Virus record (IMG/VR): IMGVR_UViG_3300033507_000092
Span: 1-30,889 of that record
Origin: a virus
Lineage: Duplodnaviria; Caudoviricetes
Reading direction: 5' to 3' (one strand)
DNA: 30,889 bases
Below the pieces are notes generated by a model, which ran no database searches, was not told the DNA's origin, and was given only the letters and a program-made list of their open reading frames with translations. Positions 1,811-29,226 of the stretch are shown here, piece by piece; positions within the stretch are counted from its first letter, which is position 1, and each line of letters starts with the position of its first letter. Both the position numbers and the translations under genes were made by a program.

Positions 1811-2122
1811 GTGAGCCTCGCATCCCAGGCCATGGCCCGCGCCACCGACACGCTGTACGCGCGTTTCGGCGACGCGGCCACCTACACCGACCGCAACGCC
1901 GTCTCCACGCCGTGCACGGTGCTGGTCGACCGCGACCTCACGCGCTACGGCGAAACCGCCGTGGTCAACCAGCGCACCGCCGTCGTTCAGGTGCGCACCG
2001 TGCAGCTGGTCGCAGCGCCGCGCCGCGGCGATACCTTCACCCTGGCCGGCAGCGGCCAGGTGCTGGTGGTCGACAGCCTGCAGGGCAGTGACGAATTCGA
2101 GCACCGGGTGTTCGCGGCATGA
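1811..2122 (+). CDS. Head-tail joining protein (lambda gpFII-like)
   Basis: 103 aa; LYARFGDAATY...PRRGDTFTL pattern; synteny. Confidence 0.65.
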   Translation: MSLASQAMARATDTLYARFGDAATYTDRNAVSTPCTVLVDRDLTRYGETAVVNQRTAVVQVRTVQLVAAPRRGDTFTLAGSGQVLVVDSLQGSDEFEHRVFAA

Positions 2123-2772
2123 CCACCAGCTACAGCATCCAGGTCGACCCCGACAGCGTGAAAGAGGCCGTGAGCCTCTTCGAGTTCGTCGGCGGCAACA
2201 CCGACGAAGCCCTGCGCGTGGCCATCAACAAGGCTGCGCCCAAGGTGCGCACGGCCAGCAGCAAGGCCATCCGCGAACAGGTGCGGCTGCAGGCCAGATA
2301 CGTCAACCAGCGGCTCACCGTCATCAAGGCCACGCGCCGCAACCTGAACGGCCGCATCCGGGCGCTGTCGCGCGGGCTGCTGCTGTCGCGCTTCAGCACC
2401 GACGCGCTGGTCTCCAGCGACAAGGTCGGCTGGTTCCGTCCGCCGCTGGTGCCCAAGCAGGGCATCCGCGTCAAGGTCAAGCCCGACGGCGCGGCCAAGG
2501 TGGTGACAGGCGACACCGACACGCGCGGCAACAATCCCTTCTACATCGTCATCAACGGCGGCCAGAACGTGGCCATCGCTGCGCGCCTGGCAGGGCAGGG
2601 CAGTGGCGGCCGCAAGGTCAAGATCTTCGGCGGCCCGTCGCTCAGCCAGGTGTTCAACACCGTGCGCGACCAGGTCACGCCCGAGGCGGCCGACGTCTTC
2701 GAAGGCGAGCTGCTCGACGCCATGCGCTACCTGCTGGTGAAGAAGTACCCGCCGGAGCCCACCGATGGCTGA
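2119..2772 (+). CDS. Minor tail/neck protein (lambda gpZ-like)
   Basis: Basic 217 aa protein with ALRVAINKAA and FGGPSLSQVF motifs; ATGA overlap with the previous gene. Confidence 0.7.
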   Translation: MTTSYSIQVDPDSVKEAVSLFEFVGGNTDEALRVAINKAAPKVRTASSKAIREQVRLQARYVNQRLTVIKATRRNLNGRIRALSRGLLLSRFSTDALVSSDKVGWFRPPLVPKQGIRVKVKPDGAAKVVTGDTDTRGNNPFYIVINGGQNVAIAARLAGQGSGGRKVKIFGGPSLSQVFNTVRDQVTPEAADVFEGELLDAMRYLLVKKYPPEPTDG

Positions 2773-3175
2773 CCTGGTGCGCGAGCGGCTGCTGGCCAAC
2801 ATCCTCACCGCCGTGGGCGGTGAGTACGGCTTGCCGGCGCCCGAAGACGAGCGCGACCTGCCCGTCACCATCGTGCAAGACGGCAGCGACGAAGCCACCA
2901 CCAACTACGACGCCACCGTCTGCGTCATGCCGCTGAACGTGGCCCGCGCCGAAGCGGCCGCCAGCAGCGACCGCGACGCCATGCGCCAGCAGGCCCACGC
3001 GGCGCTGAAGGCGCTGCTGGCGGCCATGTTCACCGACGAAACCTTCGACGGCCTGGCCGTCGGCATCGACTACACCGGCGGCGGCATCCAGGCCGACGGC
3101 CGGCTCGTGTTCGCAGAGGCTGCCTTCCGGGTGCGTTACCAGCACCTGCGCGGGCAGCCCGACGTTCTGGCCTGA
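2765..3175 (+). CDS. Tail terminator protein (lambda gpU-like)
   Basis: Acidic 136 aa protein between the gpZ-like gene and the tail tube gene. Confidence 0.55.
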   Translation: MADLVRERLLANILTAVGGEYGLPAPEDERDLPVTIVQDGSDEATTNYDATVCVMPLNVARAEAAASSDRDAMRQQAHAALKALLAAMFTDETFDGLAVGIDYTGGGIQADGRLVFAEAAFRVRYQHLRGQPDVLA

Positions 3176-3207
3176 GCCACCCACCCACAGACACCGAGGA
3201 AACACCC

Positions 3208-4203
3208 ATGGGCGCACCCATCATCCGCTACGAGGCCGGCCAGACCGCAAAGGCCTTCGAAGAGATCGTCAACAGCGGCGACGCGAAGACCTACTCGGCC
3301 AGCTTCGCCCCCGTCAGCAACGCGGCCGGCTTCGAGCCCGTCGTGGCGCCCTACGGCCTGCTGACCGGCGGCGCCATCACGCCGCACGCCACCAACGACA
3401 ACGTGGCCGTGGCCGCGCTCACGGCCTGCATGGCAGCCGTGTCGGGCGCCGACACCAGCGGCGTCATCTCGGTGGCCGCGGGAAACGTCGCCATCACCCG
3501 GCCTGCTACGGCGGTGGCGAAGATCTGCAGCATCACCATCACCAGCGCGGGCGCCATCGCCGCCGTGGCGGGCACCGACGGCGCCACCACCGCCTTCAGC
3601 GAAACCCGCGGCGCCGCCGGCGGCCCGCCCTTCATCCCGGTGGGCAGCATCGAAATCGGCCAGGTGCGCGTGACGAGCAACACCGCCGCGCTCATTACCA
3701 CGGCGCAGATCTACACCGTGCCAGGCCTGCACGTCGAGCGCAGCGACTACCCCGTGTACGCGCTGGACTACGCCACCGGCAAGGTCACATTTGCAGAGGC
3801 GCTGCCGCTCATCCACACCGCCAGCGTGCCGAAGAAGGTGTACATGCGCGGTGCCACGCCGCTGTTCAGCGCCATCCCGAACACCAGCGACTGGGTGCCG
3901 GCGGAAAGCACCTACAGCATCACGTCCACCAGCACCTACGACGGCCCGGTGGGCTCGGCCAGCAGCTCGCTTGGCCAGGCCGGATTCACGGCCGTGCTGC
4001 GCGACGGCATCACCGACAATTTCCTGGCCCAGAAGGGCAAGGACCTGTGGTTCGAGTTCCGCCCTGATCGCGACAAGACCGTGCCCAAGCAGCTCACGCA
4101 GGGCAAGCTGGGCATCAGCCGCACCTTCCCCAGCGGCGGCGGCAACTTCAGCGCAGCCTGCACGGTGACGCCGCGCGTCGAGTCGGTGGACGTGCGCGCC
4201 TGA
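3208..4203 (+). CDS. Major tail tube protein (putative)
   Basis: 331 aa, Thr/Ala/Gly-rich, strong GAGGA RBS; directly upstream of the frameshifting chaperone and tape measure genes. Confidence 0.7.
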   Translation: MGAPIIRYEAGQTAKAFEEIVNSGDAKTYSASFAPVSNAAGFEPVVAPYGLLTGGAITPHATNDNVAVAALTACMAAVSGADTSGVISVAAGNVAITRPATAVAKICSITITSAGAIAAVAGTDGATTAFSETRGAAGGPPFIPVGSIEIGQVRVTSNTAALITTAQIYTVPGLHVERSDYPVYALDYATGKVTFAEALPLIHTASVPKKVYMRGATPLFSAIPNTSDWVPAESTYSITSTSTYDGPVGSASSSLGQAGFTAVLRDGITDNFLAQKGKDLWFEFRPDRDKTVPKQLTQGKLGISRTFPSGGGNFSAACTVTPRVESVDVRA

Positions 4204-4676: not shown

Positions 4677-4828
4677 GGGCCGCCATGGCCCTGTGCTCAG
4701 AGCGCGGCAGGTTTCTGTTCGAAGTGCGCCCCGACCTGTTCCCCGAAGCCATGCTCGGCCACACCGAGACCGATCTCTGGGGCCGTTGGTACGAAGAACG
4801 CGAGCGCCGCAACACCGCCCGCAAGTAA
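4640..4828 (+). CDS. -1 frameshift extension of the tail chaperone (gpGT equivalent)
   Basis: GGGAAAG at 4640-4646 is in the lambda G/T register. The -1 frame reads KAEALWVDPGVRAAMALCSERGRFLFEVRPDLFPEAMLGHTETDLWGRWYEERERRNTARK to TAA at 4826-4828. Confidence 0.85.
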   Translation, partial: GKAEALWVDPGVRAAMALCSERGRFLFEVRPDLFPEAMLGHTETDLWGRWYEERERRNTARK

Positions 4829-4840
4829 GGACCCCCCGCC

Positions 4841-7609
4841 GTGGCCGACGCGCAGCGCACCATCGATCTGATCTTCAACGGCGTCGACAAGACCGGCGCC
4901 GCGACGCTGAGCGCGCTGAACAACGTCGACAAGTTCGCCGGCAACGTCCAGAAGCTCACCGAACCCATCGCCGACTTCACCCTGGGCGCGGTGAAGCTCG
5001 AGGCCGGGCTGCTGGCTGCCGGCTTGGCCCTGACCACCTTCGCGGTGAAGACGGCCGGCGACTTCGACGCCAGCTTCCGCCAGATCAGCACCCTGGTCGA
5101 CGCTTCGGCCGAAGACCTGGAAGCCTTCCGCCAGGCGGTGCTGGAATACGCCAGCGGCAGCACCAAGCCGCTGGCCGACATTACCGCGTCGCTCAGCGCC
5201 GCCATCGGTTCCGGCGTGGACATGGCCGAGTCCCTCAGCCTGCTGGCCGTGGCCGAAAAGCTGGCCGTGGCCACGCGCGCCGACCTGACCAGCACCACCG
5301 AAACGCTGGTCAGCACGCTGAACGCCTACGGCCTGAAGACGGGCGACGCCGGCAAGGTGTCCGACCTGTTCTTCCAGACCATCAAGGACGGCAAGATCGA
5401 GATGACCGATCTGTCGGCCAGCCTGGCGCGGGTGACGCCCATCGCGGCCACGGCCGGCATCAGCCTGCAGGAAGTGGGCGCCGTCATCGCCACGCTGACG
5501 GCCGGCGGCATGCAGCCCTCCAGCGCCATCGACGCGCTGCGCAGCGCCATCACCAACATCATCAAGCCCAGCGAGCAAGCGAAGAAGCTGGCCGAAGAAC
5601 TGGGCATCCAGTTCAACGTGCAGGCGCTACAGAGCAAGGGCTTGTCGGGCGTGCTGGACGACGTGGCCAAGGCCACTGGCGGCAGCGCCGACAAGATGGC
5701 CATCCTGTTCGGCGACGTCACCGGCCTGGGCGCCGTGCTCTCGTTGACGGGCAAGCAGGCCGACACCTTCAAGGACGCGCTGGTGTCCATGGGCGACGCC
5801 ACGGGGTCGGTGCAGGCCGCCTTCGAGAAGATGGCGGGCTCGGTGGGCGAATCGAGCCAGCGGGCCGTGAACGCGCTGACGGCGCTGCTGGTGGGCATCG
5901 GCACGCCGCTGCTGGACGAGTTCGGCGGCATTGCCAACGCCGTGGCCGCCATCTTCACGGCGCTGGGCGCCAGCGTGAAGAACGGCGGGCTGAAGGACGT
6001 GGTCGGCTTCATCGAAAGCCTGTTCGGCGACCTGCAGAGCACGCTCGACAAGGTGGCGGCGAACCTGCCGAAGGCGCTGGAAAGCGCCGACCTGAGCGGC
6101 TTCACGCGCGGCATCCAGGCCGTGGTGGAAGCCTTCCGCAACCTGTTCGGCGGCATCGACCTGACCACCGTCGCCGGCCTGACCCGTGCCGTGGAGCTGG
6201 CCGGCGCTGCCTTCCTGGGCCTAAGCCGCTTCACGGCCGGCGTGGTCGAGAGCTTCGGCCCGCTGTTCGACTTCCTGGTCAAGCTGGGCGGCCAGATCGA
6301 CAAGGTGAACCCCGACTGGCTGGAATTCGCCGGCAACATCGGCGGCGCGGTGACGCAGTTCAACCTGCTGCTGAGCGGCATTGGCGGGCTGGTACCGGCG
6401 TTGGAGGTGCTGGTGGGCCTGATGGTGGCCCGCAACGGCCTCAGCCTGCTGAGCGCCGTGAGCACGCTGGCCGCGGCCATGCCGGCGCTTACGGGGGCCC
6501 TCACGGTGGCGGGCGTGGCTTTCGCTGGGGCCTTCGCCATAGAAAAGCTGTACCAGATCGTCACCGGTGTCCTGCAGCTCAAGGAAGCCAACAAGCAGCT
6601 GGCAGAAGCCCAGGACCGCGCCCGGACATCGGCCGCGCAAAGCACTGAAACCCTGGACCGCTTCAACGAGACCACCGGCCTGACGGCGACCACGTTGGAC
6701 GCCGCGATTCAGGCAATCGACACAGGCGCGGTGGTCTGGAGTACCGCGGCCAATGGGTGGGTCTTGGTGGGTGACGCGCTGGCCGATGCCGGCGACGCTG
6801 CCCAGGGGGTGGCCGACCCCTTCGGCGAGGCCAACCGAGCGATGCTTGATGCGTCAGAGGCAGCCGCCAAGGCCGAGGACGCCGCGCAGGGCCTGGGCGC
6901 CGCCCAGAAAGACGTCGGCACCTACACGATGAAGATCGTGGAGATCGTCGATCAGGCCACCGGCAAGATCATCGGCTACGAGCAGCAGCTGGTGCGCACA
7001 GAGGGCGCCGGCCGTAGGCTGGGCCAGGCCACGGCCGATGCGTCGAAGGACCTGAAGACGTCGGGCGACGTCATGGACGCGCTGAGCCGCAAGACGGACC
7101 TGACCAACAAGGAACTGATCGAGCTGGCGAAGAACGTCAAGGACGCCGAGATCAAGCTCGAAGAGATCGCCAGCAACGAGCGCATCAAGAACATCGAAGC
7201 CCAGGTCTCGCTGAACATCGCGCAGCTCGAGGCCGACACCGAACGGGTGAAGGCGGCCTTCAGCAGCATCGACAACACCGTGAACAGCACAGGCGATCTG
7301 CTGGGCGAACTGTTCGGCCTGTTCGGCGACTTTGACAAGCTGAGCTTCAGCACCACCAACAAGATCGAAGACCAGATTGAGCTCGAGAACAAGCGCCGCG
7401 ATGGCGCGCTGAAGCTGCAGAAGGACCTTACCGAAGCGCAGATAGCCAATATCAAGGCGCAGACGCAGAAGATCGAGACCGGCGACGCCTTGATAAAGGT
7501 CGACGGCGCCGGCCTGCAGCCGCACCTTGAGGCGTTCATGTGGGAGATTCTGCGGACCATCCAGGTGCGGGTGAATCAAGACGGTTTGAAGATGCTGCTG
7601 GGCACCTGA
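4841..7609 (+). CDS. Tail tape measure protein (TP901-family core)
   Basis: 922 aa, helical and Ala/Gly/Leu-rich; STLNAYGL...SDLFFQTIKDGKIEMTDLSASLARV motif. Confidence 0.92.
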   Translation: MADAQRTIDLIFNGVDKTGAATLSALNNVDKFAGNVQKLTEPIADFTLGAVKLEAGLLAAGLALTTFAVKTAGDFDASFRQISTLVDASAEDLEAFRQAVLEYASGSTKPLADITASLSAAIGSGVDMAESLSLLAVAEKLAVATRADLTSTTETLVSTLNAYGLKTGDAGKVSDLFFQTIKDGKIEMTDLSASLARVTPIAATAGISLQEVGAVIATLTAGGMQPSSAIDALRSAITNIIKPSEQAKKLAEELGIQFNVQALQSKGLSGVLDDVAKATGGSADKMAILFGDVTGLGAVLSLTGKQADTFKDALVSMGDATGSVQAAFEKMAGSVGESSQRAVNALTALLVGIGTPLLDEFGGIANAVAAIFTALGASVKNGGLKDVVGFIESLFGDLQSTLDKVAANLPKALESADLSGFTRGIQAVVEAFRNLFGGIDLTTVAGLTRAVELAGAAFLGLSRFTAGVVESFGPLFDFLVKLGGQIDKVNPDWLEFAGNIGGAVTQFNLLLSGIGGLVPALEVLVGLMVARNGLSLLSAVSTLAAAMPALTGALTVAGVAFAGAFAIEKLYQIVTGVLQLKEANKQLAEAQDRARTSAAQSTETLDRFNETTGLTATTLDAAIQAIDTGAVVWSTAANGWVLVGDALADAGDAAQGVADPFGEANRAMLDASEAAAKAEDAAQGLGAAQKDVGTYTMKIVEIVDQATGKIIGYEQQLVRTEGAGRRLGQATADASKDLKTSGDVMDALSRKTDLTNKELIELAKNVKDAEIKLEEIASNERIKNIEAQVSLNIAQLEADTERVKAAFSSIDNTVNSTGDLLGELFGLFGDFDKLSFSTTNKIEDQIELENKRRDGALKLQKDLTEAQIANIKAQTQKIETGDALIKVDGAGLQPHLEAFMWEILRTIQVRVNQDGLKMLLGT

Positions 7610-7613
7610 CGCC

Positions 7614-7967
7614 ATGATGTGCACTCTGTCGACACCGGCCTATGACTTCGACGGCGTGGTCACGCTACGCCTGTCGGCCCTGCCGCAGCCCGACGGCGTG
7701 CGGCGCCGCGTCAATCGCATTGCCACCCTGGACGGCGGGGTGGCCGTCAACGACTTCGGCTTCGCCGACGCCGACCGCACGCTGCTGCTGCGCTGGGCGC
7801 CAACCGGCCAGGCCCAGCACGCCGAGATCGATCGCCTTGTGCAGACCTACCCACTGCTGCAGGTGGCCACGCGCGACGGCGTGTTCTTGGCCGCACCAGA
7901 GACCTACGTGCAGGGCACCGAGGAATCTAGCCTGCGCCTGCTGGTCACACAGAAGCTCTCTGCCTGA
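7614..7967 (+). CDS. Distal tail (Dit-like) protein, putative
   Basis: Follows the tape measure gene; RRVNRIATLDGGVAVNDFG motif. Confidence 0.5.
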   Translation: MMCTLSTPAYDFDGVVTLRLSALPQPDGVRRRVNRIATLDGGVAVNDFGFADADRTLLLRWAPTGQAQHAEIDRLVQTYPLLQVATRDGVFLAAPETYVQGTEESSLRLLVTQKLSA

Positions 7968-7979
7968 CAGGAAACCACC

Positions 7980-8369
7980 ATGCCCGCACCGACCATTGCC
8001 ACCTACTCCGTCGCCGCCCTGGTGGCGGCGCATACCAGCTTTCGAGACCTGATCGACAGCGGCAGCGCCGCGGGCAAGATCCGCATTCGCGATGCGGCCG
8101 ACGCTCTGCTGGCCGAAACCGTGCTGGCCGACCCGTGCGGCACGGTGAACGGCACCACCGGGCAGCTGACGTTCAGCGTGGCCACGCAGGAGGACGCGGC
8201 CACGGCAGGCACTGCGGCCTATGGCGAATTCGTGGACAGCGACGGCGACGTGCACCTGGCGCTGCCTTGCGAGGCCGGGACAGCGGCGGTATCTGGCAAG
8301 CTGGTGCTGAACAGCCTGACGCTGGTGGCCGGCGGGCCGGTGAACATCGTCAGCGCGACCATCGGGTGA
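7980..8369 (+). CDS. Virion structural protein (tail tip region)
   Basis: 129 aa, beta-rich (GQLTFS...AGTAAYGEFVDSDG); good RBS; tail module position. Confidence 0.6.
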   Translation: MPAPTIATYSVAALVAAHTSFRDLIDSGSAAGKIRIRDAADALLAETVLADPCGTVNGTTGQLTFSVATQEDAATAGTAAYGEFVDSDGDVHLALPCEAGTAAVSGKLVLNSLTLVAGGPVNIVSATIG

Positions 8370-8373
8370 TCTG

Positions 8374-9792
8374 ATGGCGGTGACCTGGGTCGGAGGCGGT
8401 CCAGCGGTCTTTGCCGCCTTCGGATCCAGCACAGTTTCTGGAGCCGCCCCGGCCGGGATTGCCGACGGCGACGTGCTGCTGGCGTGCGTGTTCGGCCGCG
8501 GAACGATCACCCCACCGTCGGGGTGGACCAAGCTGCGCGAGGTCGAGTTCTCAAACCCGGCCTTCATCCAGTACGTCGTCCTGTTCTCGAAGGACACCGT
8601 CACCACGGCGGACGCAAGCGCAACCTTCACCTTCGACGACGATTCCTTCAGCCGCTGCGGGCTGCTGTACGCCGTCGCCCGTGGCGTGGACGGCGAGGTC
8701 ATCGGCGACGCCGCGGCCAACAGCGTGGACAGCTGGTCGATCACGCCGGCATCGGCAACGGCCGGCGCCGATGGGTCGATGCTCCTTGTGTTCGTCTCGC
8801 AGATTTACCCAGGAGACGTAGCAACGCCAACGCCAACGCCGCAGGCGTCGTTCACGCTGTTCAGTGGCGCCGCACTGGCCGACTACCGCCTGGCCGGTGC
8901 GTATCGGTCCGTGGACACCGGGCAGTCGAACTCCGGCGCGTTCAACATGGACCCGGCCGGTGCAAACCCTATTGCGGCCGGCTATGCCTACACCAACGGC
9001 CTAGGCGCCATCACGGTGCTGCTGTCGCCGGCTGGGGGCGGTATCGCGCCTGTAGATGGCATCGCCGCGGCGCCCGGTCCTCTCGGCGCTGCGGCGTCGC
9101 TGGCGCTGGCGTCCGTCTACGTGCGGTCGGCAGCGCCAGGGCCGCTGGGAGCGCCGCTGGTGATGGCGCGGCAGTCTGCGGCGCTGCTTTCAGTGCCGAG
9201 CATGCTGGGTCAGGCAGCAGCCCTGGCGGCGCACGACTTCACCAGCAGCTTCGAGGGCCAGCCGCTGCGCTACGTGATGGACCTGATATTCCCGCCCGCA
9301 GGAGCAGAGAGGGTGCCGATAAGCTCATGGCAGGCCACCTTGCAACTGGACAGGGCCCAGTACGTGCAGTGCGTGGTGCCAGCCTGCGAGCCCTACGTCG
9401 ACCAGATCAACGCCGCGCCCACGTTCCGCATCAGGCGCCGGGCCCTGCTGCCTGACGGTCAGCCGTTCGAGTACGACATGGCCGTCGCGCCGCTGCAGAC
9501 TGTGCAGATGGCGCGAGGCTCCCGCAACTACACCGCCACGCTGAGCGGCTATGCCCCGCCGGCTGAGGCCGACGAAGACCCGCCAGAGGCCACGGCGCGC
9601 ACGCTGCGTGACGTGCGCAGCGTCACCACCCAGGCAAGCGGCATCAGGGTCAGCTGTGCGATCGACTGGCTGCTGCGGCCGGGCCAGATCGCCTACGTTG
9701 ACGGCGTGCCGTTCGTGGCCAGCTACATCAACTATTACTGCAGCGACGGCGACCAGTACATGGACGTCGGCGAGCGCACCGAGGCCGGCTGA
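8374..9792 (+). CDS. Tail tip protein with a beta-sandwich-like N-terminal part and a hub-like C-terminal part
   Basis: 472 aa. N-terminal PAGIADGDVLLA...TPPSGWT motif, a repeated AAPGPLGA linker, and C-terminal DWLLRPGQ. Coupled to the next gene via TGATG. Confidence 0.55.
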   Translation: MAVTWVGGGPAVFAAFGSSTVSGAAPAGIADGDVLLACVFGRGTITPPSGWTKLREVEFSNPAFIQYVVLFSKDTVTTADASATFTFDDDSFSRCGLLYAVARGVDGEVIGDAAANSVDSWSITPASATAGADGSMLLVFVSQIYPGDVATPTPTPQASFTLFSGAALADYRLAGAYRSVDTGQSNSGAFNMDPAGANPIAAGYAYTNGLGAITVLLSPAGGGIAPVDGIAAAPGPLGAAASLALASVYVRSAAPGPLGAPLVMARQSAALLSVPSMLGQAAALAAHDFTSSFEGQPLRYVMDLIFPPAGAERVPISSWQATLQLDRAQYVQCVVPACEPYVDQINAAPTFRIRRRALLPDGQPFEYDMAVAPLQTVQMARGSRNYTATLSGYAPPAEADEDPPEATARTLRDVRSVTTQASGIRVSCAIDWLLRPGQIAYVDGVPFVASYINYYCSDGDQYMDVGERTEAG

Positions 9793-11216
9793 TGGGCTAC
9801 GCACGCATCCTGGGCGGTGGCGAGGACGGCCGCTACACCATCGAGATGGACTACGGCGCATCCACGAAAGCGTCCGCCATGGAGGCGCTGAACGCGCTGC
9901 TGGCGAAGATCGACACCGGCATCGCCACGCAGCGGGTACTGAACGCGGCGGCAGATGCGCTGGAAGCCGAACAGCGCGCCAGGGTTCTGGAAGCGCAGCA
10001 GCAGGTGATCGACCAGACCGTGGGCGGCCTGCCGCCGGGATCGCCCAAGCCCGACACCACAGCCTACAAGTTCGAACTGCTGAAGCTGTCGAAGCTTCAA
10101 CAGAAGCACGCGCCCATGCGCATGAACCTGCAGGCGTTGCTGTTCGACAGGCAGCAGGCGCTGCGGCAGGTGGCGAAGTGGAGCGCATTCACGCCCACCG
10201 AGACGCGCCAGGCTTGGTGCGCAGACCTGACGGAGGACGCGCCGGCAGGGGCTTATGCGGCCACGCTGGATATTCCGGGCGAGTCCGGCCTGATCCTGCT
10301 GGCGCCAGGCTGCAGGGCTTGGTCGGCCGGCGACGGCATGCTGAAGGCGCGCGAAACCATGTCGCCTGAGCAGGCCTTCCTGAATGCTGCGCTGCTGCCC
10401 GGGTGGCAGAAATTCATGCCCACGTACCGCTGGGGCACCTGCATGGCAGTTGACCGAGACGCGGACACCATGAATGTTCATCTGGCGCCGGCCATCTCGT
10501 CGGCGCAGCGCCTGCCGGTCAACCAGTCGAGCACCCTGACCGGCGTTCCTGTGGTCTACATGACGTGCAACGCAGAGCCCTTCGAGGTGGGAGACCGCGT
10601 GGTCGTCCAGTTTGTCGGTCAGGACTGGACCAAGCCGCGAGTTATCGGGTTTCTGGACAACCCAAAGCCATGTGAAGAGTTCGAGTTGTATTACGGATAT
10701 TGGAACGCGCTTGGTGTGACTTCTCAGACTCAAAAGATATACAAGAACCGCGATGGAGAAGAAGTAACAACTCTTGCACCATTCTATAACCCATTGACCC
10801 GTACAGGATCGGCTTTTGTATTTTGTGGATGGAATGACGGGGTAACTACACTGACGCGAAGAGAATTGAACGTTATCGAAGATGGTTCGTTCTTCGCGCA
10901 GTACGCTGGCGTGAGCGGAGAAGATATATCTAGCGCAATCGGGTTAAAAACTGAAGATGGCGCAACCACATATAAGCGAACAATATCAATATCCTATACC
11001 GGGCGCACGTTGATATCCGGCCCTGCGCCTGGCGCATACGAATCAGGCTGGGTCAGCTTTGCGGAAGCGCTCGCATTCTTTGTTGGCCAAACGGCAACTC
11101 TCTCATTCACAGCCTTCGGAAGGGTAATTCAGTACACCTGGCAAAGCCAGGCAGATCCTGACGATTCATCGTCGCTGATCTGGAAACTGACAGACGTCGA
11201 TCCTCTGCAGCCGTAG
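9792..11216 (+). CDS. Tail tip / putative receptor-binding protein with a low-GC C-terminal module
   Basis: 474 aa, last tail gene. OB-fold-like VGDRVVVQF...PRVIGF is followed by an abrupt switch to AT-richer codons at about 10680. Confidence 0.6.
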   Translation: MGYARILGGGEDGRYTIEMDYGASTKASAMEALNALLAKIDTGIATQRVLNAAADALEAEQRARVLEAQQQVIDQTVGGLPPGSPKPDTTAYKFELLKLSKLQQKHAPMRMNLQALLFDRQQALRQVAKWSAFTPTETRQAWCADLTEDAPAGAYAATLDIPGESGLILLAPGCRAWSAGDGMLKARETMSPEQAFLNAALLPGWQKFMPTYRWGTCMAVDRDADTMNVHLAPAISSAQRLPVNQSSTLTGVPVVYMTCNAEPFEVGDRVVVQFVGQDWTKPRVIGFLDNPKPCEEFELYYGYWNALGVTSQTQKIYKNRDGEEVTTLAPFYNPLTRTGSAFVFCGWNDGVTTLTRRELNVIEDGSFFAQYAGVSGEDISSAIGLKTEDGATTYKRTISISYTGRTLISGPAPGAYESGWVSFAEALAFFVGQTATLSFTAFGRVIQYTWQSQADPDDSSSLIWKLTDVDPLQP

Positions 11217-11353
11217 ACCGCCGCGTTGGAGCCCATGAATACCAAGCAACGCACCATCACTTCATGGCCTCCCGGCATCGCATCGGTGTAGCGGTTAGGC
11301 TGGTGCCGTAGTCGCGCGGGGACAGGATCAGGTGTGCCGGACTTGTGCCGAGA

Positions 11354-12646
11354 TCAGGCCGATTTCGGCTTTCTCGGCTTTCGCAAGTCGTTGATTTTCA
11401 ATACTTCGGCGGCATGGGAACGTCTTGTGATTCTGGTCGTCGTGGGTTCGAGTCCCATCAGCCACCCCAAGTGATTTCCCTCGTAAGCGGCCTCTTCGGA
11501 GGCCGCTTCTCTTTGTGCCTTCGGCGCAGGTTGTGCCGGAGTTGTGCCACCGGCTGAGAGATTGCCGGCCCACTGCGCCACGTGGCTGCGGCCCAGGTGG
11601 GCGTAGCGCTGCACCATGGCCAGGCTGGCCCATCCGCCCAGTTCCTGCAGCACCGCCAGAGGCGTGCCGGACTGCACGTGCCAGCTTGCCCAGGTGTGGC
11701 GCAGGTCATGGAAGCGCAGCCAGGGCACGCCGGCGCGCACGCAGGCCTTGCGCCACGCGGCGCTGCTGATCTTGCCCGTGGGGGAGTCGGCCACCAGGCG
11801 CGGCTTGTCTCCAGGCGAGGCCGCTGGCTCCCAGTGCGGAACGGGGAACACCCACTGCTTGTGGGCGCCGCGCTGGCGGGCCAGCACCTGCAGGGCTTCG
11901 TCGTTCAATGGCACGCTGTGGGCGCGGGCGGCCTTCATCTCGTCGGCCGCAAACCACGTCACAGCCCGCGCCATGTCGACCTGCTGCCAGGTCAGCAGGC
12001 GCACGTTGGTCTCACGCAGGCCGGTGGCCAGGGCGAACTCGGCCATGGCGCGCAGGTGCGGCGGCAGCTCGGCCAGCAGCTTGTCGGCTTGCTCGTGCGT
12101 CAGCCAGGCCACGCGGCGCGCAGGCTCGGCGGCCTTGCTGATCGGCGGCACGGCGTCCAGCCAGCGCCGCTTGTGGGCGTAGTGCAGCACGGCGCTGAGC
12201 TGCGCCAGGTGGCGGTTGACGGTGGCGCCGCTGGTGGGCTTGGGCTTGGGTGGCGGCAGTTCGGCCGCAATGGCGCGCTCGATAGCCCGGCGGTTGACGG
12301 CTTCGGCCCGGCGCTCGCGGGTCAGGGCGCGGATCACGGGATCGGTGATCTCGGCGAGTGGCGTGCCGCGCAGTCGGGCGCTCAGCCAGCGCAGCACGCG
12401 CTTGATCTCCTCGATTGAGCGGCGGTGCTGGTGTTCCTCGAGCCAGGCCACGACGGCCTGGTCCCACGTCACCGTGGGGGTTTCGCCGAGGCGGCGGGCG
12501 CGCCAGAGATCGCGTGCAAGCGTGGCGGCGTATTCCTGCGCCTCGGCGCGGTCCGAGGTGCCAGTGCTGCGTCGAGCACGCTGGCCGGCAACGTCGCCGA
12601 GATCAACCCACCACGTGCCTCGTTTGCCGCGCTGATAGAGCCGCAT
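11354..12646 (-). CDS. int: Phage tyrosine integrase
   Basis: Catalytic motifs TGLR, FHDLRHTWASW, LGGW and RYAH; N-terminal arm-binding segment; overlaps attP. Confidence 0.95.
   Translation of the reverse strand: MRLYQRGKRGTWWVDLGDVAGQRARRSTGTSDRAEAQEYAATLARDLWRARRLGETPTVTWDQAVVAWLEEHQHRRSIEEIKRVLRWLSARLRGTPLAEITDPVIRALTRERRAEAVNRRAIERAIAAELPPPKPKPTSGATVNRHLAQLSAVLHYAHKRRWLDAVPPISKAAEPARRVAWLTHEQADKLLAELPPHLRAMAEFALATGLRETNVRLLTWQQVDMARAVTWFAADEMKAARAHSVPLNDEALQVLARQRGAHKQWVFPVPHWEPAASPGDKPRLVADSPTGKISSAAWRKACVRAGVPWLRFHDLRHTWASWHVQSGTPLAVLQELGGWASLAMVQRYAHLGRSHVAQWAGNLSAGGTTPAQPAPKAQREAASEEAAYEGNHLGWLMGLEPTTTRITRRSHAAEVLKINDLRKPRKPKSA
11425..11469 (+). other. attP core identical in form to the 3' half of tRNA-His(GTG), from the anticodon loop to CCA
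   Basis: TTGTGATTCTGGTCGTCGTGGGTTCGAGTCCCATCAGCCACCCCA has the GTG anticodon loop, a GTTCGA T-loop and the His-type CCACCCCA end. No 5' half lies upstream. Confidence 0.92.
11485..11514 (+). terminator. Rho-independent terminator for the tRNA restored on integration
   Basis: AAGCGGCCTC-TTCG-GAGGCCGCTT hairpin followed by CTCTTT, 15 nt after the CCA. Confidence 0.7.
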
Positions 12647-12828
12647 GCGCCCTCCCTGTAGACCCCGTACTGCGTGCGCAGCCAGGAAATGACGTCATCG
12701 TCGACCAGCACGTAGGCGCGCCCGATGCGCGCGGCCGGCAGGCCGCGATTGTGGATGCAGTCGCTGACCGTCTCGGCCGTGGTCTTCAGGACCGCGGCCG
12801 CTTCGTCCAGGGACAGCGTGGTCGGCAT
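12469..12828 (-). CDS. xis: Excisionase-like HTH protein whose C-terminal extension overlaps int by 178 nt
   Basis: LSLDEAAAVL...LPAARIGRAY matches the HTH_17 pattern; lies immediately upstream of int. Confidence 0.8.
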   Translation of the reverse strand: MPTTLSLDEAAAVLKTTAETVSDCIHNRGLPAARIGRAYVLVDDDVISWLRTQYGVYREGACGSISAANEARGGLISATLPASVLDAALAPRTAPRRRNTPPRLHAISGAPAASAKPPR

Positions 12829-12830: not shown

Positions 12831-13073
12831 TCAGGCCAGCGCGTCCAGCGGGCTGATGACGCCGCGCCCGCCCTGGCTGGCCGGCAGGACGTGGGTGTAG
12901 ATCATTGTGGTCTCGACGTCGGAGTGGCCCAGCAGCTGCTGGATGGTGCGGATGTCGTACCCGGCCTGGAGCAGGTGGCCACGCTCGCCAGGCTTCGGGC
13001 CGGCGGCAGCCATCAGCGCCGCTGCGCGGTGCGTAACGGCTGCTGATGTGGGCGGTGCCTGGGTGGTGAGCAT
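12831..13073 (-). pseudogene. intI: Integron-integrase (IntI-type) remnant with an in-frame internal deletion
   Basis: [31 protein letters not shown]...[10 protein letters not shown] matches the IntI C-terminus. It is joined directly to a 32-aa N-terminal leader, and the core domain is missing. Confidence 0.85.
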
Positions 13074-13103
13074 GGCGGGCCGGTGTTACACCGCGGGTGT
13101 GGC

Positions 13104-13122
13104 GGTCGAATTCACGTTAGGT
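13104..13122 (+). other. attI-like site 1 (crossover G/TTAGGT at 13116/13117)
   Basis: GGTCGAATTCACGTTAGGT just upstream of the intI start; a GTTRRRY core with no pairing attC arm. Confidence 0.65.
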
Positions 13123-13148
13123 GCTTTTCGCGTGTTACAAAATAGTCG

Positions 13149-13177
13149 TTGACGCGGTGCATTGTTCGTAATACAGT
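13149..13177 (+). promoter_or_regulatory. Sigma70 promoter for the two-gene + strand unit
   Basis: TTGACG-17 nt-TACAGT in an AT-rich patch. Confidence 0.65.
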
Positions 13178-13226
13178 CTATTCCACGGTGATGCACAGGG
13201 CAGCACCGGCAACCAGGAGAGACACC

Positions 13227-13439
13227 ATGAGCAGCATCAACCTCTACGAAGCCAGCCCCGAAGTCATCATGGAAGAGGCCGAGCGCATCGCCGACGACTG
13301 GAACGCCTTTTGCGATGGCATCGACACGATGGGCGTCTGCTACGCCGACAAATCCGCATTCGACGCGGCTCCGTTCGCTGAGCGCCTGTCCACGGTGCTG
13401 GAAACGTTTCGCGGCAACGGTGTCGCGGTCCCGGCATGA
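13227..13439 (+). CDS. Small acidic hypothetical protein (70 aa)
   Basis: AGGAGA RBS, then ATG (MSSINLYEASPE...); ATGA overlap with the next gene. Confidence 0.7.
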   Translation: MSSINLYEASPEVIMEEAERIADDWNAFCDGIDTMGVCYADKSAFDAAPFAERLSTVLETFRGNGVAVPA

Positions 13440-13633
13440 GCCAAGCCCCCGAACCAAAGCGCCGGGGGCGCCCGCCCCTGGCCCCCGGCGAGAGCACGGC
13501 GTCACCAGTGCGAACCGTGCGCCTGTCAGATGCCGAGTTCGCAGAGCTACAGGCGCGCGGCGGCTGGCCCGCTGTCCGCGAGTGGCTGGCGAGGCCGCAG
13601 CGTCGGTCAGCGGCGAATGGGCCGTCACGCTGA
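13436..13633 (+). CDS. Small ribbon-helix-helix-like DNA-binding protein
   Basis: KRRGRPP hook followed by VRTVRLSDAEFAEL..GG..VREWL. Confidence 0.65.
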   Translation: MSQAPEPKRRGRPPLAPGESTASPVRTVRLSDAEFAELQARGGWPAVREWLARPQRRSAANGPSR

Positions 13634-13829
13634 CTCCCCCAGCGCAGCCCGCGCCGCCTCTTTTGCTGCGTCGTGGTCGTCGTCGTTCAGCATCCCGCGC
13701 AGTGCAGCAGGTACAGCGGCTCGGGCTGCGGGGCTGCCAATGCGGCACGCAGGGCGTCGGCGCCCGGCCAGCTATCCGGCAGGTCGTGAGCAGTTCGCGG
13801 GCGGCGGTGCGTAGGTCGGTTACGTTCAC
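13625..13829 (-). pseudogene. Degenerate small phage gene(s)
   Basis: GGAG RBS plus GTG start (MNVTDLRTAARELL). Protein-like text continues only after frame changes (LPDSWPGADALRAALAAPQPEPLYLL; DDDHDAAKEAARAALGESA). Confidence 0.4.
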
Positions 13830-13943
13830 ATCTGCTCCAATTTAGGCAGCCCATTGCGCGGGGCTGCGGTGTAGGGTGTTGATATGTATGGGGTTGTCAG
13901 CGGGCGTGCTGATATGGGCCAACTGGGGTTAGTCGGAGGGGTT

Positions 13944-13962
13944 GGTCCACATTACGTTAGGT
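13944..13962 (+). other. attI-like site 2 (crossover G/TTAGGT at 13956/13957)
   Basis: GGTCCACATTACGTTAGGT is similar to site 1, has no upstream attC arm, and marks the left end of cassette A. Confidence 0.6.
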
Positions 13963-13963
13963 T

Positions 13964-14683
13964 TCACAACAGCCCCTCTTGCACGCATTCGCGCGGGGGT
14001 TCGGGTGGTAGTAGCGTGCCCTGGGCCTGGGCGCGGCTGATGCGCTCGCAGGCGATGTCGAAATACGGGCGGTGAATCTCCACGCCGACAAAACGCAGGC
14101 CGAGATTCATCGCCGCTACTCCGGTACTGCCTGATCCCATGTAAGGGTCAAACGTCAGCGCGGGAAAACCGGCCAGCTCCAAGCATCGGCGCATCAGTGC
14201 AACCGGCTTCTGTGTCGGGTGCTCTAGCCCTCCACCTACAAACGGGCACTCTTCGCCGCCGCGCTGTATGCCTTGCCACCGCTGGCGGTGTACGCGGTTT
14301 GAGCCGAGGAAGTTTGTCCACGCGGTTTCACAGTCGCCGCCCGACCACCTGCCCACAATCTGCTTATCCCAAATGATCCAGCCGTAGTTGTCGGGCAACC
14401 TGCTGGCGTAGGCCGAAGCGCCGAACAGAATCACGAGCTTTGCCAACGGCAGCAGTGCCCCAGGGTCAAACGGCGCATCGTCGCCATGTATCGGGGCCGC
14501 AGCCTTGCCCCATGTGCGCGTGCCATCCGGCTTATACCCGGCGCTTGCGGTCGAGTCGCGTGCATAGCCAATGCCATAGGGCGGGTCGCTCACCACAGCA
14601 TCAAAGCGCGGCAGCAGCGGCAGCACCTCGCGGCAGTCGCCGTGCCACAGTTCCGCGTTCCCTATCACCACTTTCTCAGCCAC
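13964..14683 (-). CDS. Orphan DNA methyltransferase, N6-adenine/N4-cytosine beta class
   Basis: DPPY precedes HPTQKP and FDPYMGSGSTG; no restriction enzyme nearby. Confidence 0.92.
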   Translation of the reverse strand: MAEKVVIGNAELWHGDCREVLPLLPRFDAVVSDPPYGIGYARDSTASAGYKPDGTRTWGKAAAPIHGDDAPFDPGALLPLAKLVILFGASAYASRLPDNYGWIIWDKQIVGRWSGGDCETAWTNFLGSNRVHRQRWQGIQRGGEECPFVGGGLEHPTQKPVALMRRCLELAGFPALTFDPYMGSGSTGVAAMNLGLRFVGVEIHRPYFDIACERISRAQAQGTLLPPEPPRECVQEGLL

Positions 14684-14861
14684 GGTCGGCCCTCGCGTGA
14701 ATCAACCCGCTGATCTGCTGCGCCAGTCGGGCAGCGTCAGCAATCATCGGCAGCAGCACCAGCGCGGCCACCGCGTCGGCGGTCTTCAGTGCGTCCTGTA
14801 GATCGCGCGTTGCAAACGTCGCAGAGTTCAGGGCCTTTGTCAGTTCTTCGTCCATGTTCAT
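14676..14861 (-). CDS. Small helical hypothetical protein
   Basis: 61 aa; AAGGA near the start; overlaps the MTase start. Confidence 0.6.
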   Translation of the reverse strand: MNMDEELTKALNSATFATRDLQDALKTADAVAALVLLPMIADAARLAQQISGLIHARADRG

Positions 14862-14886
14862 CCTTGGTCAGTGCGCCACCAGTGAA

Positions 14887-14945
14887 ACCTAACCAGACAA
14901 TTCAAGCGGACTGCCTACGGCAGCCTCTTAATTGCAACGTTAGGC
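14887..14945 (+). other. attC site A (59 bp)
   Basis: ACCTAAC-CAGAC-AATT[C]AAGCGG[A]CTGCC-TAC-GGCAGCCTCTTAATT-GCAAC-GTTAGGC. Extrahelical bases at 14903 and 14910 (G and T on the bottom strand) are 6 nt apart. Confidence 0.92.
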
Positions 14946-15235
14946 CCTGTCACGCGAACGGGCCATCCATCAGACCACCCGGCTTGTTCCACTCTGCGCG
15001 CACCTAGCGCTTCGTCTATCGTGGCGCGCATCAGTCCGCCGTGATGCCTCGCCTGCAGCCATTGCAGGCACTCGCGCAGTCGCTCAATCTCGTCGGCGGC
15101 TTCGAGCATTGCAGTGCTGTAATCGTCGCTCAGTAGCTCGTCGGCAGGGTAGGCCCTCAAACGTTCAACCAAGGGCCTAACCTGGCAGTCAACCGGAGAG
15201 CCGCCGGCCTCTGGTTTTTGGTGTTCGGCGTTCAC
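14915..15235 (-). CDS. Hypothetical phage protein whose two termini are encoded by attC sites
   Basis: LVERLR...EAADEIERLR motif common in small phage early genes; starts inside attC B and stops inside attC A. Confidence 0.75.
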   Translation of the reverse strand: MNAEHQKPEAGGSPVDCQVRPLVERLRAYPADELLSDDYSTAMLEAADEIERLRECLQWLQARHHGGLMRATIDEALGARRVEQAGWSDGWPVRVTGPNVAIKRLP

Positions 15236-15262
15236 GTTGGGCGTCTCCCGGTTACGTCTACG
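14940..15262. mobile_element. Gene cassette B (106-aa gene)
   Basis: Left end GTTAGGCCCT (14939-14948) is the exact reverse complement of AGGGCCTAAC (15172-15181). Confidence 0.85.
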
Positions 15263-15268
15263 TTAGTC
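15175..15268 (+). other. attC site B (94 bp)
   Basis: GCCTAAC-CTGGC-AGT[C]AACCGG[A]GAGCCGCC ... GGCGTCTCCCGGTTAC-GTCTAC-GTTAGTC; extrahelical bases at 15190 and 15197. Confidence 0.88.
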
Positions 15269-19530: not shown

Positions 19531-19564
19531 ACTCTATCCGCGAGCTAGTCTAGCGTCAAGATAG
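19531..19564 (-). promoter_or_regulatory. Early-left promoter (PL) with two operator-like 15-mers
   Basis: TTGACG (19559-19554)-17 nt-TAGAGT (19536-19531); CTATC-N5-GCTAG at 19534-19548 and CTAGC-N5-GATAG at 19550-19564. Confidence 0.75.
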
Positions 19565-19657
19565 CTAAAGCAGTTTTTTCACCTCATGCAAACCCTGCCC
19601 GGCGTGGAGCGGCGTACAAGGCGGGTGCGGCCATCGTCCTGCGACACAATGCGCGTC

Positions 19658-19798
19658 ATGTTCAGTGCCCGCTTCGGCCGTCCTGTGGTGTTGACGCGCC
19701 ACACGCGCCTGCGCATGGTCGAGCGCCAGATCGACGAGGCCCTGCTGCTGCGCGTGCTGGACGAGGGCGGCACCCGCTACAGCGACGCCACCCAGCTG
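19658..19798 (+). pseudogene. 5' fragment of a DUF4258-like (RelE/BrnT-fold) gene
   Basis: MFSARFGRPVVLTRHTRLRMVERQIDEALLLRVLDEG..RY.DAT; similarity ends at CAGCTG 19793-19798. Confidence 0.55.
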
Positions 19799-20113
19799 CG
19801 TGACGTGTGTGGACTCGGCCAGTTCATCCAGGGTGCCGCCGACCAGCTTCTGCAGCACATCCACAAGGTGCAAGCGCTCTTCTGGGGTGATGTTGCCATC
19901 AGCCAGCGCCTGGTCTATGGCGGCGACGATCACGTTGCCGGGCCATGCGTGGGCGATGCTGGCGTTGTTTTGAAGCCAATACTGAAGGAAGCGGATCTCC
20001 TGGTCCGACAGATGGCCATCAGACAGAATTCCTTGAGCGATGCCCAGCAGGGCTCCGCACGATCGGGCAAGGTCGTTCCGGAAGGCGGACGCTTGACGGG
20101 AAAATAAGGTCAT
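19793..20113 (-). pseudogene. 5' fragment of a prophage TerB-like/BRCT-domain gene (BRCT part missing)
   Basis: LLGIAQGILSDG.LSDQEI.FL..WL...WPG...ALADG.IT.EER resembles the N-terminal domain of prophage BRCT proteins; the protein-like signal is lost after ESTHVTQL. Confidence 0.55.
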
Positions 20114-28759: not shown

Positions 28760-28766
28760 CCGCCCC

Positions 28767-29180
28767 ATGCCCAAGCCTACGCCACAAGCCCAGCACCTGC
28801 CGTCGCAGCCCATCGCCGACCCCGACCTCGTCGACCGCCTCTTCGAGTTCCTCCGCGACGACCCCCGGCTGCCGAAGATGCCGCCCGCCGTCCTGGCCGA
28901 AGTCAAGGCCGACCTGCGCTGCGAGTTCCGCGACGAAGTGCGCCGCACCTCGCCGCTGGAACGGCAGCAGCGCGTGCACCAAGTGCTGGCGCTCTTCAAC
29001 GGCCGCAACGCCACCGAGGTGGCCCGCAGCCTGGGCATCGGCCGCGCCACGGTGTACCGCTACCTCAAGCAGCAGGGCAGCCGCCCGCCTGGCGCCGCCA
29101 TCTTCCGCGTCGCGCCGTCAGACCGTCTCACATTCCCTGGAAATGAGACAGACCCCCCGATAACTTCAGGCGACGCCTGA
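28767..29180 (+). CDS. Mor/C-like late transcription activator (HTH)
   Basis: FNGRNATEVARSLGIGRATVYRYLK; lies between terL and the head operon. Confidence 0.7.
   Translation: MPKPTPQAQHLPSQPIADPDLVDRLFEFLRDDPRLPKMPPAVLAEVKADLRCEFRDEVRRTSPLERQQRVHQVLALFNGRNATEVARSLGIGRATVYRYLKQQGSRPPGAAIFRVAPSDRLTFPGNETDPPITSGDA
29125..29149. promoter_or_regulatory. Dyad GTCTCA-N13-TGAGAC, candidate late-activator binding site
   Basis: Perfect 6-bp inverted repeat ending 77 nt upstream of the gpW start. Confidence 0.5.
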
Positions 29181-29226
29181 CCCTCGCGCGCGGGGTGCTG
29201 GCGGCAACCTTGCAGCCACGCCACCC

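What the first reader, a model, noticed from the sequence alone, without database searches (positions are those of the whole stretch)
12831..15268. Phage-encoded integron with antisense cassettes plugged into the early-left operon
Seen: an IntI-type C-terminus, a GTTAGGT core 43 nt upstream of its start, and two attC sites with R/L boxes and extrahelical bases. Cassette ends match their own R'' over 12 bp (13956-13967 vs 14882-14893) and 10 bp (14939-14948 vs 15172-15181). Established: in canonical integrons most cassette genes lie on the attC top strand and are read from Pc, away from intI. Here every cassette gene is on the bottom strand, in line with the PL operon, and intI is a member of that operon just before xis-int. 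The cargo is phage-type (orphan MTase, small early genes), not resistance genes. Inference: the phage uses integron recombination to shuffle and acquire its own early accessory genes. I know of no characterised example, but I could not search the literature.
Basis: partly seen in the sequence, partly recalled or inferred. Interest (0 to 1): 0.95.

Follow-up and report, generated by a model that had tools for sequence, protein, structure and literature searches.

The report
Phage integron with backwards gene cassettes
This temperate phage carries the broken remains of a gene-swapping system (an integron) whose swappable genes are mostly written on the strand opposite to the bacterial norm, and related phages with an intact enzyme differ by whole genes exactly at the swap points, so these phages likely use it to gain and reorder their own early genes.

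Summary
Observation largely confirmed, with three corrections. Both attC sites are real (49.7 and 32.9 bits with a model built only from bacterial attC sites), and the three genes in their cassettes lie on the attC bottom strand, in line with the leftward early operon. Corrections: intI is a dead 80-aa in-frame deletion product. The first cassette faces the normal way, has its own predicted promoter and has lost its attC. Position 13956 is a second, integrase-less docking site.

Relatives supply the intact system. They form a phage-linked IntI clade (38 of 120 tree rows) with intI abutting xis/int, a conserved attI about 43 nt upstream and no LexA box (0 of 22). Their cassette genes are antisense (70 of 72, against 0 of 36 in bacterial controls by a cruder test). 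Near-identical phages differ by whole cassettes exactly at G/TT. Cargo includes methyltransferases and Acb2/Tad1-family proteins.

Phage integrons are published (Qi 2023), but my searches found no paper on the reversed layout. This scan has noted it on other DNA (16 findings). Recombination and expression are untested. New variant of a known kind.

The parts
11354..12646 (-). Phage integrase (tyrosine recombinase), end of the leftward operon; the open frame runs into the attP-like region
   Evidence: PF00589 E 2e-29, phrog_1
11425..11471 (+). tRNA 3'-half-like stretch, likely attP core (His identity inferred from the GTG loop, recalled)
   Evidence: unrelated contigs match only this stretch; ARAGORN finds no whole tRNA
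12469..12828 (-). Excisionase; starts 2 nt after the intI stop
   Evidence: TIGR01764 above cut-off, PF12728; spacing from the sequence
12831..13073 (-). intI remnant, 80 aa: in-frame deletion of about 819 nt between two 7-nt repeats (junction 12971-12977); predicted inactive
   Evidence: same sequence in a second assembly and on 3 contigs
13026..13094 (.). Imperfect inverted repeat (13026-13037 and 13085-13094) flanking the intI start codon; recurs in many relatives; role unknown
   Evidence: seen by eye, not counted
13074..13122 (+). attI (dock A); crossover G/TT at 13116/13117
   Evidence: conserved arm in 67 pattern matches, 61 with the core at the same offset and varying DNA beyond it
13117..13633 (+). 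Cassette 0, normal orientation: predicted sigma-70 promoter 13149-13177, 70-aa gene 13227-13439, 65-aa gene 13436-13633 (ribbon-helix-helix-like, inferred); its attC is lost here
   Evidence: homology starts at the core in L043 and L321, where the cassette ends in a full attC; promoter scan; Atlas leads only
13625..13829 (-). Decayed (frameshifted) small gene with a ribosome-binding site at the left end of dock B
   Evidence: sequence; no clear homologue found
13830..13962 (+). Dock B: second attI-like site without integrase; crossover at 13956/13957, GTTA box 28 nt upstream
   Evidence: no attC model hit; one 174-nt contig is identical over 13829-13961 and then carries a different sequence starting like a cassette
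13957..14939 (-). Cassette 1, reversed: N6/N4 DNA methyltransferase 13964-14683 and 59/61-aa gene 14676-14861
   Evidence: PF01555, phrog_67; same cassette at 92.6% from the same G/TT in phage contig L292; 30 hits, the query included, for the small gene
14887..14945 (+). attC1 (top strand = +)
   Evidence: 49.7 bits; 91% identical to an attC in L055
14940..15262 (-). Cassette 2, reversed: 106-aa ORF 14915-15235, whose Shine-Dalgarno and GTG start lie inside attC2
   Evidence: sequence; 7 homologues besides itself; weak codon score
15175..15268 (+). attC2 (top strand = +); its core at 15262 is the far end of the array
   Evidence: 32.9 bits
15232..15486 (-). 84-aa gene reading into attC2; taken as the phage backbone side of the array
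   Evidence: called in the protein collection; no attC beyond it
19531..19564 (-). Predicted leftward early promoter (19559-19531) with two operator-like repeats that recur at the cI/cro boundary (20742, 20779)

Best explanation
This is a decayed member of a lineage of temperate-phage integrons in which most cassette genes are written on the attC bottom strand, so that the phage's leftward early transcript likely reads the cassettes from the far end and then intI, xis and int as one operon. SHOWN: the recombination geometry is normal (intI, attI, then attC sites with their top strand facing away from intI). The genes are reversed, often with their ribosome-binding site and start codon inside their own attC. 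Relatives differ by whole cassettes at G/TT. intI abuts xis/int and lacks a LexA box. INFERRED: when the repressor leaves the leftward promoter (induction or infection), IntI is made along with Xis and Int. Replication exposes single strands so attC bottom strands fold, cassettes are excised by attC x attC recombination and re-enter at attI, and co-resident phages exchange them. Because every reversed cassette lies inside a strong operon, array position would not switch a gene on or off as it does behind Pc; the gain would be capture, loss and exchange of small accessory genes, methyltransferases and Acb2/Tad1-type sponges among them. In this phage a deletion removed most of intI and another removed the attC of cassette 0. 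Its two intact cassettes could move only with IntI supplied by the host or another phage.
For: Sites. Intact IntI in relatives; 27 of 53 distinct attI loci intact. attI: 61 of 67 pattern matches have the core at the same offset although the pattern did not include it. Reversed genes: best codon-scored ORF on the bottom strand in 70 of 72 segments; PHROG hits for 21 of 72 bottom ORFs and 0 of 70 top ORFs; bacterial controls have the longest ORF on top in 36 of 36. In a set chosen by the methyltransferase alone, 50 of 79 viral loci have attC nearby: 48 reversed only, 2 both, 0 normal only. Start signals inside long attC sites on the bottom strand: 25 of 48 phage against 2 of 46 bacterial. Movement: L148/L190, L160/L164 and L153/L201 differ at G/TT; the window's own cassettes 0 and 1 recur from the same G/TT in other phages. 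Operon link: the next gene is an excisionase or integrase in 24 of 30 tested, mostly with stop-start spacing of -4 to +2; LexA box 0 of 22 against 10 of 18. Phage-linked clade with support 99. Cargo.
Against: No experiment: neither IntI activity nor transcription was shown. intI is broken or absent in 18 of 45 loci that could be judged, and only 1 of 79 methyltransferase loci shows intI within 2.5 kb, so much of the traffic may be run by other integrases. By longest ORF alone the phage segments split only 43 bottom to 29 top. The codon model came from this phage and was not run on the bacterial controls, and the top-strand ORFs sent to PHROGs were shorter. Cassette 0 faces the normal way, and its predicted promoter points against the operon. 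The phage loci were chosen by likeness to this intI or attI, and several are near-copies of each other. Dock B rests on one short contig.
Confidence: 0.8

Rival explanations
1. Host-driven traffic: reversed cassettes enter phages mainly through host integrases acting on attI-like or secondary (attG) sites, and the phage intI is a dispensable passenger that tends to be lost.
For: 18 of 45 judged loci have lost intI. Integrase-less docks occur beside xis (L292) and in this window. A Rubrivivax bin holding one such phage also has a second IntI with a LexA box. IntI inserts cassettes at non-att sites (bioRxiv 10.1101/2022.09.11.507474, passages). A review links loss of LexA control to inactive IntI (PMC8946536, passages).
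Against: A 38-row phage-linked IntI clade with intact genes of about 55-90% identity, a conserved attI of its own, and first-position cassette changes next to intact intI. For this window itself the rival is the only route left, so it complements the best explanation more than it excludes it.
Confidence: 0.3
2. The reversed cassettes are mostly selfish or neutral passengers that ride the early operon; they are reversed only so that they do not block transcription and translation of xis and int, not because their products help the phage.
For: 51 of 72 cassette ORFs have no PHROG family. This array is decayed. intI is often lost.
Against: Cargo includes 7 methyltransferase ORFs and 2 Acb2/Tad1-domain proteins above the Pfam cut-off. 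The small genes have conserved homologues and carry their own start signals.
Confidence: 0.2
3. An ordinary host integron fragment was picked up by the prophage (as in the Vibrio and Shewanella cases of Qi 2023), and the apparent reversal comes from mis-called genes in high-GC DNA.
For: The phage clade is sister to betaproteobacterial chromosomal IntI (moderate support). Longest-ORF calls alone are mixed. One viral contig (L016) does carry a bacterial-type IntI.
Against: Family hits fall only on bottom-strand ORFs. The methyltransferase is plainly on the bottom strand here and in 48 of 50 loci with attC. No LexA box, and only about 43 nt between core and start codon.
Confidence: 0.04
4. The attC-like palindromes act as RNA signals or as handles for homologous recombination, and IntI plays no part in the exchanges.
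For: attC sites resemble each other (75-90% over 100 nt between some cassettes) and could recombine by homology.
Against: Changes at the first position join attI to a new cassette with under 10 nt in common, always at G/TT, and cassette starts match their own R'' over 8 bp or more in 56 of 72 segments.
Confidence: 0.05

Closest known systems
Canonical integrons: class 1 and betaproteobacterial chromosomal integrons (PMC8946536, passages; bioRxiv 10.1101/030866, passages)
   Same: IntI above the TIGR02249 cut-off in relatives; attI with a G/TT crossover; attC sites with R and L boxes; intI on the strand opposite the attC top strand; cassettes of 250-1400 nt whose start matches their own R''.
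   Different: Cassette genes are on the bottom strand and point towards intI. No LexA box, and about 43 nt from core to start codon. intI abuts xis/int. Start signals often lie inside attC. In this window intI is deleted.
Phage integrons and CALINs of Qi et al. 2023 (PMC9892861; main text parts 1-4 of 7 up to the start of the references, and part 1 of 2 of the supplement, read)
   Same: attC arrays in phage genomes, methyltransferase cassettes, and phage attC sites recombined by IntI1. One of their CALINs (MW202573) has 5 of 5 model hits opposite to the annotated genes, the same layout as here.
   Different: The complete integrons they describe are a piece of a Vibrio chromosomal integron, class 1 integrons in P1, and a Shewanella-type integron in an inactive prophage. 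TJE1, one source of their tested sites, has genes in the normal orientation. The text I read does not mention reversed genes, a phage IntI clade or linkage to xis/int.
SALINs and insertion at secondary (attG) sites (Loot et al., bioRxiv 10.1101/2022.09.11.507474, passages)
   Same: Cassettes outside a complete integron, expressed from a resident promoter; could explain dock B.
   Different: Those are ordinary top-strand cassettes at scattered sites. Here there is a dedicated attI with repeated first-position insertions and a consistently reversed cassette pool.
[quoted passage not shown]
   Same: intI and cassette genes lie on one strand.
   Different: There the integrase is flipped relative to attC and the genes are normal (seen in virus Rctr41k). 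Here the integrase is normal relative to attC and the genes are flipped.

Membership tests
Integron (complete) | Full-length IntI with the IntI-specific insertion, in this window | tested here: not met
   80-aa remnant, 70 bits against cut-off 265; middle of the gene absent
Integron (complete) | Full-length IntI in relatives at the same position | tested here: met
   6 of 6 score 417-431 bits; insertion region aligned with a bacterial-type IntI; 27 of 53 attI loci intact
Integron (complete) | attI site next to intI with crossover at G/TT | tested here: met
   61 of 67 matches; first-position cassette differences
Integron (complete) | attC sites with R/L boxes and strand asymmetry | tested here: met
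   own model from 33 bacterial sites: 49.7 and 32.9 bits on +, 9.2 on - for attC1
Integron (complete) | attC score above the IntegronFinder model's threshold | not testable with these tools
   that model is not available; Rfam was not searched
Integron (complete) | Cassette genes on the attC top strand, read from Pc at the attI end | tested here: not met
   70 of 72 segments bottom; 3 of the 5 intact cassette genes in the window are bottom, and the other 2 have their own predicted promoter
Integron (complete) | intI promoter with a LexA box (common, not universal) | tested here: not met
   0 of 22 phage loci, 10 of 18 proteobacterial controls (the regions scanned differed in length)
Integron (complete) | IntI-dependent excision and insertion of cassettes | not testable with these tools
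   only comparative traces
CALIN | Two or more attC sites with no functional integrase nearby | tested here: met
   two attC sites 230 nt apart, intI deleted; unlike most CALINs it keeps an intI pseudogene and attI
Inverted-integrase integron | intI on the same strand as the attC top strand | tested here: not met
   intI on -, attC top on +
Captured host integron fragment in a prophage | IntI nested among chromosomal IntI, normal cassette orientation | tested here: not met
   relatives form a clade with no genome-collection row other than a duplicate phage contig; genes reversed; the genome sample was 1 of 64 parts of the collection

The most novel reading that the evidence does not exclude
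Temperate phages have evolved their own integron lineage with a mirror-image cassette pool. Genes are built on the attC bottom strand with their start signals inside the recombination hairpin, they are silent in a bacterial integron but expressed in a phage early operon, and IntI is switched on with Xis and Int at induction. This gives phages a site-specific, shared library of early accessory and counter-defence genes, the counterpart of the anti-phage cassette banks of bacterial integrons, and a defined mechanism for part of the mosaicism of phage early regions.
Probability: 0.55. Interest if true: 0.87.

Novelty: new variant of a known kind. Interest (0 to 1): 0.72.

Why it matters
Phage early regions are known for small, swapped genes, usually put down to illegitimate or short-homology recombination (own knowledge). 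Here a named enzyme, named sites and exact breakpoints account for such swaps in a set of temperate phages, which makes the question directly testable with standard integron assays. It also reverses a rule stated in the integron literature, that strand choice at attC exists to place genes behind Pc. The cargo includes likely counter-defence genes, whereas bacterial integrons are reported to bank anti-phage genes (search listings of bioRxiv 10.1101/2024.07.02.601686 and 10.1101/2024.07.02.601719). This particular window is a broken example; its value is as a pointer to intact relatives and as a record of how the system decays.

Tried and rejected
An attC before 13956 or before 13116: no model hit and no matching fold. 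Homologues of dock B and of the decayed gene: none clear among GenBank phages, fetched loci or earlier scan notes; an exact 21-mer found only the twin assembly. Assembly error as the cause of the intI deletion: a second assembly agrees over about 15.9 kb with one substitution and a divergent last 90 nt, but it may come from a related sample, and no laid contig bridges the junction. Longest-ORF strand calls were too noisy in high-GC DNA. No RNA holder was listed, so expression was not examined. PADLOC gave only methyltransferase families for 1 of 14 proteins. The Atlas gave no usable hit for the 70-aa protein and only leads under 0.9 for named families of the 65-aa protein. A fixed RNA hairpin over the intI start was not supported: predicted folds vary between relatives. 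The full maximum-likelihood tree did not finish, so FastTree was used. GenBank phages gave 9 IntI records, none of this clade by identity. Literature searches listed no paper describing reversed cassettes in phage integrons; subscription journals are mostly not held, and the Dryad annotation file of Qi 2023 was not seen.
Full report
CONTEXT. The window is a 30.9-kb virus record of a lambda-like temperate phage. It holds capsid, tail and tape-measure genes, then int (11354-12646, -) and xis (12469-12828, -), a leftward run of small genes including DUF2303, a cro/cII-like region, primase and terminase. A predicted leftward promoter at 19559-19531 carries two operator-like repeats that recur at the cI/cro boundary. 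I take it as the early-left promoter; that is inference, and the repressor gene had no family hit.

THE OBSERVATION. Seven of the eight GTTAG/CTAAC words in the window lie between 13116 and 15262. The cassette-end matches are exactly 12 and 10 bp. I built a covariance model from 33 attC sites found beside intI in bacterial genome contigs. Those sites were picked by my own rule-based detector, so the model is independent of phage sequence but not of that detector. It scores 14887-14945 at 49.7 bits and 15175-15268 at 32.9 bits on the + strand; the next hit scores 15.3. The methyltransferase, the 59/61-aa gene and the 106-aa gene are on the - strand, which is the attC bottom strand.

THREE CORRECTIONS. 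First, intI is dead. The 80-aa ORF joins the N-terminus and the C-terminus of the full-length protein of relatives. In relative L040 two CACCTGC-type 7-mers lie 819 nt apart, and its 1062-nt gene less 819 equals the window's 243 nt. Second, the DNA right behind attI is itself a cassette. Its homology to L043 and L321 starts at the core, and in both it ends in a full attC with a matching R''. It holds two top-strand genes behind a predicted promoter; here its attC is gone. Third, 13956 has no attC before it. In run X2 a 174-nt contig is identical over 13829-13961 and then continues with different sequence, and relatives of the methyltransferase end follow other left arms in X2 and X6. So 13956 behaves as a second dock, on thin evidence.

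RELATIVES HAVE THE INTACT SYSTEM. The 48-aa C-terminus found 36 viral loci, 31 of them IntI-like. Six of six tested score 417-431 bits on TIGR02249, cut-off 265. A pattern for the conserved attI arm, which did not include the core, matched 22 viral and 45 metagenome stretches, several of them copies of one phage. In 61 of the 67 the core sits at the same offset, with varying DNA beyond. Of 53 distinct loci, 27 have intact intI, 18 a broken or missing one, and 8 were too short to judge. In a FastTree tree of 120 IntI proteins, 38 rows from viral and metagenome contigs form one clade (support 99), sister with moderate support to betaproteobacterial chromosomal IntI. Seven more viral rows form a second clade (100), and one viral row (L016) is bacterial in type. 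The genome sample was the best 80 from one sixty-fourth of the collection, and one Rubrivivax bin contig dropped out as a duplicate of a viral contig. Of 45 clade rows examined I sent the next ORF of 30 to PHROGs: 22 matched excisionase families, 2 integrases and 6 neither. The xis/int modules differ between phages, and most start within -4 to +2 nt of the intI stop. No LexA box was found in 22 phage loci, against 10 of 18 proteobacterial controls.

THE GENES ARE REVERSED. In 36 of 36 bacterial control segments the longest ORF is on top; in 72 distinct phage segments from 35 loci that crude test gave 43 bottom and 29 top. A codon model trained on this phage's core genes put the best ORF on the bottom in 70 of 72. 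One exception is the promoter-bearing cassette; the other has poor scores on both strands. PHROGs hit 21 of 72 bottom ORFs and 0 of 70 top ORFs, which were shorter. A set not chosen for integron features, 79 viral loci related to the methyltransferase, had attC nearby in 50: 48 reversed only, 2 both, none normal only. A Shine-Dalgarno plus start codon lies on the bottom strand inside 25 of 48 long phage attC sites and 2 of 46 bacterial ones; the window's attC2 shows this directly. The best ORF of the first cassette ends between -18 and +27 of the core in 25 of 31 loci, close to the intI start.

CASSETTES MOVE AT G/TT. I compared 13 chosen pairs. L148 and L190 differ by 40 of 3059 nt on the intI side, and L190 lacks exactly the 369-nt first cassette. 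L160 and L164 are identical over 1095 nt on that side; L164 has an extra 523-nt first cassette, the start of a near-copy of it in third place, and a different neighbour after the shared cassette. L153 and L201 share 3724 nt of array and part at a core. L148 and L149 have different arrays, and backbone homology resumes at the last attC core. Several other pairs were identical or uninformative. First-position junctions share under 10 nt, too short for a repeat-driven misassembly (inference). The window's methyltransferase cassette occurs at 92.6% over 734 nt from the same core in L292, behind an integrase-less dock next to xis.

CARGO. Among the 72 ORFs, 7 match methyltransferase families and 2 the Acb2/Tad1 hairpin domain above cut-off; 51 have no PHROG family. 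No resistance family appeared in these PHROG and Pfam scans; no resistance library was searched. That such methyltransferases protect against restriction is stated in PMC9892861; that Acb2 and Tad1 are anti-CBASS and anti-Thoeris sponges is recalled. Neither was tested.

MECHANISM. Shown: geometry, reversal, breakpoints, gene adjacency and absence of a LexA box. Inferred: one leftward transcript covers cassettes, intI, xis and int; IntI is made at induction or infection; it recombines folded attC bottom strands as in known integrons (PMC8946536, passages); phages trade cassettes. Frequent loss of intI fits a cost of unregulated integrase (the same review links missing LexA control to inactive IntI) and fits help in trans. 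A Rubrivivax bin with such a phage has a second IntI with a LexA box, which also hints at Burkholderiales hosts. This phage would need such help.

WHAT IS KNOWN. Qi et al. 2023 (PMC9892861; main text and part 1 of the supplement read) report integrons and CALINs in 21 phages and show that IntI1 recombines phage attC sites. Their TJE1 array has genes in the normal orientation, while MW202573 has 5 of 5 model hits opposite to its genes, which the text I read does not remark on. Loot et al. (bioRxiv 10.1101/2022.09.11.507474, passages) state that strand choice places cassettes correctly behind Pc, and describe isolated cassettes. Cury et al., PMC8876359 and PMC13323075, all passages only, cover inverted integrases and antisense promoters in ORF-less cassettes, not reversed genes. 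PMC13366799 (passages) found no integrons in its prophages. Nine searches listed no description of this layout. This scan has noted it before: 16 findings hold all my search words, 8 were shown, and two of these describe complete systems. My reading was formed before that call; the notes are unchecked and are not counted as support.

VERDICT. A real feature: a decayed copy of a phage integron variant with reversed cassettes. As it stands the window is a CALIN with an intI pseudogene and two docks. The lineage works like an integron in recombination but fails the canonical expression layout. New variant of a known kind; interest 0.72.

Noticed in passing
L179:3557-3826 and L195:913-1194: First-position reversed cassettes encode Acb2/Tad1 hairpin-domain proteins above the Pfam cut-off; L179 has an intact intI.
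   Followed up: partly
window 13026-13037 and 13085-13094: Imperfect inverted repeat flanking the intI start codon, recurring in many relatives; one arm holds the stop codon used by 11 of 31 first-cassette ORFs. Could be IntI binding sites or a translation switch.
   Followed up: partly
L376 (MW202573) 2069-3738: One of the published phage CALINs has 5 of 5 attC hits opposite to its annotated genes.
   Followed up: partly
L037 (Virus Rctr41k, KX853513) 4680-10101: IntI followed downstream by six similar 127-131-nt attC-like sites on the same strand as intI and the genes: an inverted-integrase layout in a viral record.
   Followed up: partly
L023, L026-L031: A second viral-only IntI clade (7 rows, support 100); the four with detected sites also have attC arrays 5' of intI in the same geometry.
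   Followed up: partly
L292-L370: Many integrase-less left arms precede reversed cassettes; they share little sequence beyond GTTA-like boxes, suggesting several families of docks.
   Followed up: partly
L024, L147, L155, L174, L176, L197, L200, L207: Independent deletions or truncations of intI at different points.
   Followed up: no
L187 array: Two adjacent cassettes begin with the same sequence, suggesting a tandem cassette duplication.
   Followed up: no
L076:6479-7390: An 81-aa top-strand gene occurs twice, once on each side of an attC.
   Followed up: no
window 19565-20113 and 28759-30889: The tellurite-resistance-like gene left of the repressor and the portal region look frameshifted or split; no long ORF gave a portal hit.
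   Followed up: no
window 10600-11300: The 3' part of the last tail gene drops to about 54% GC, typical of a swapped host-recognition segment.
   Followed up: no
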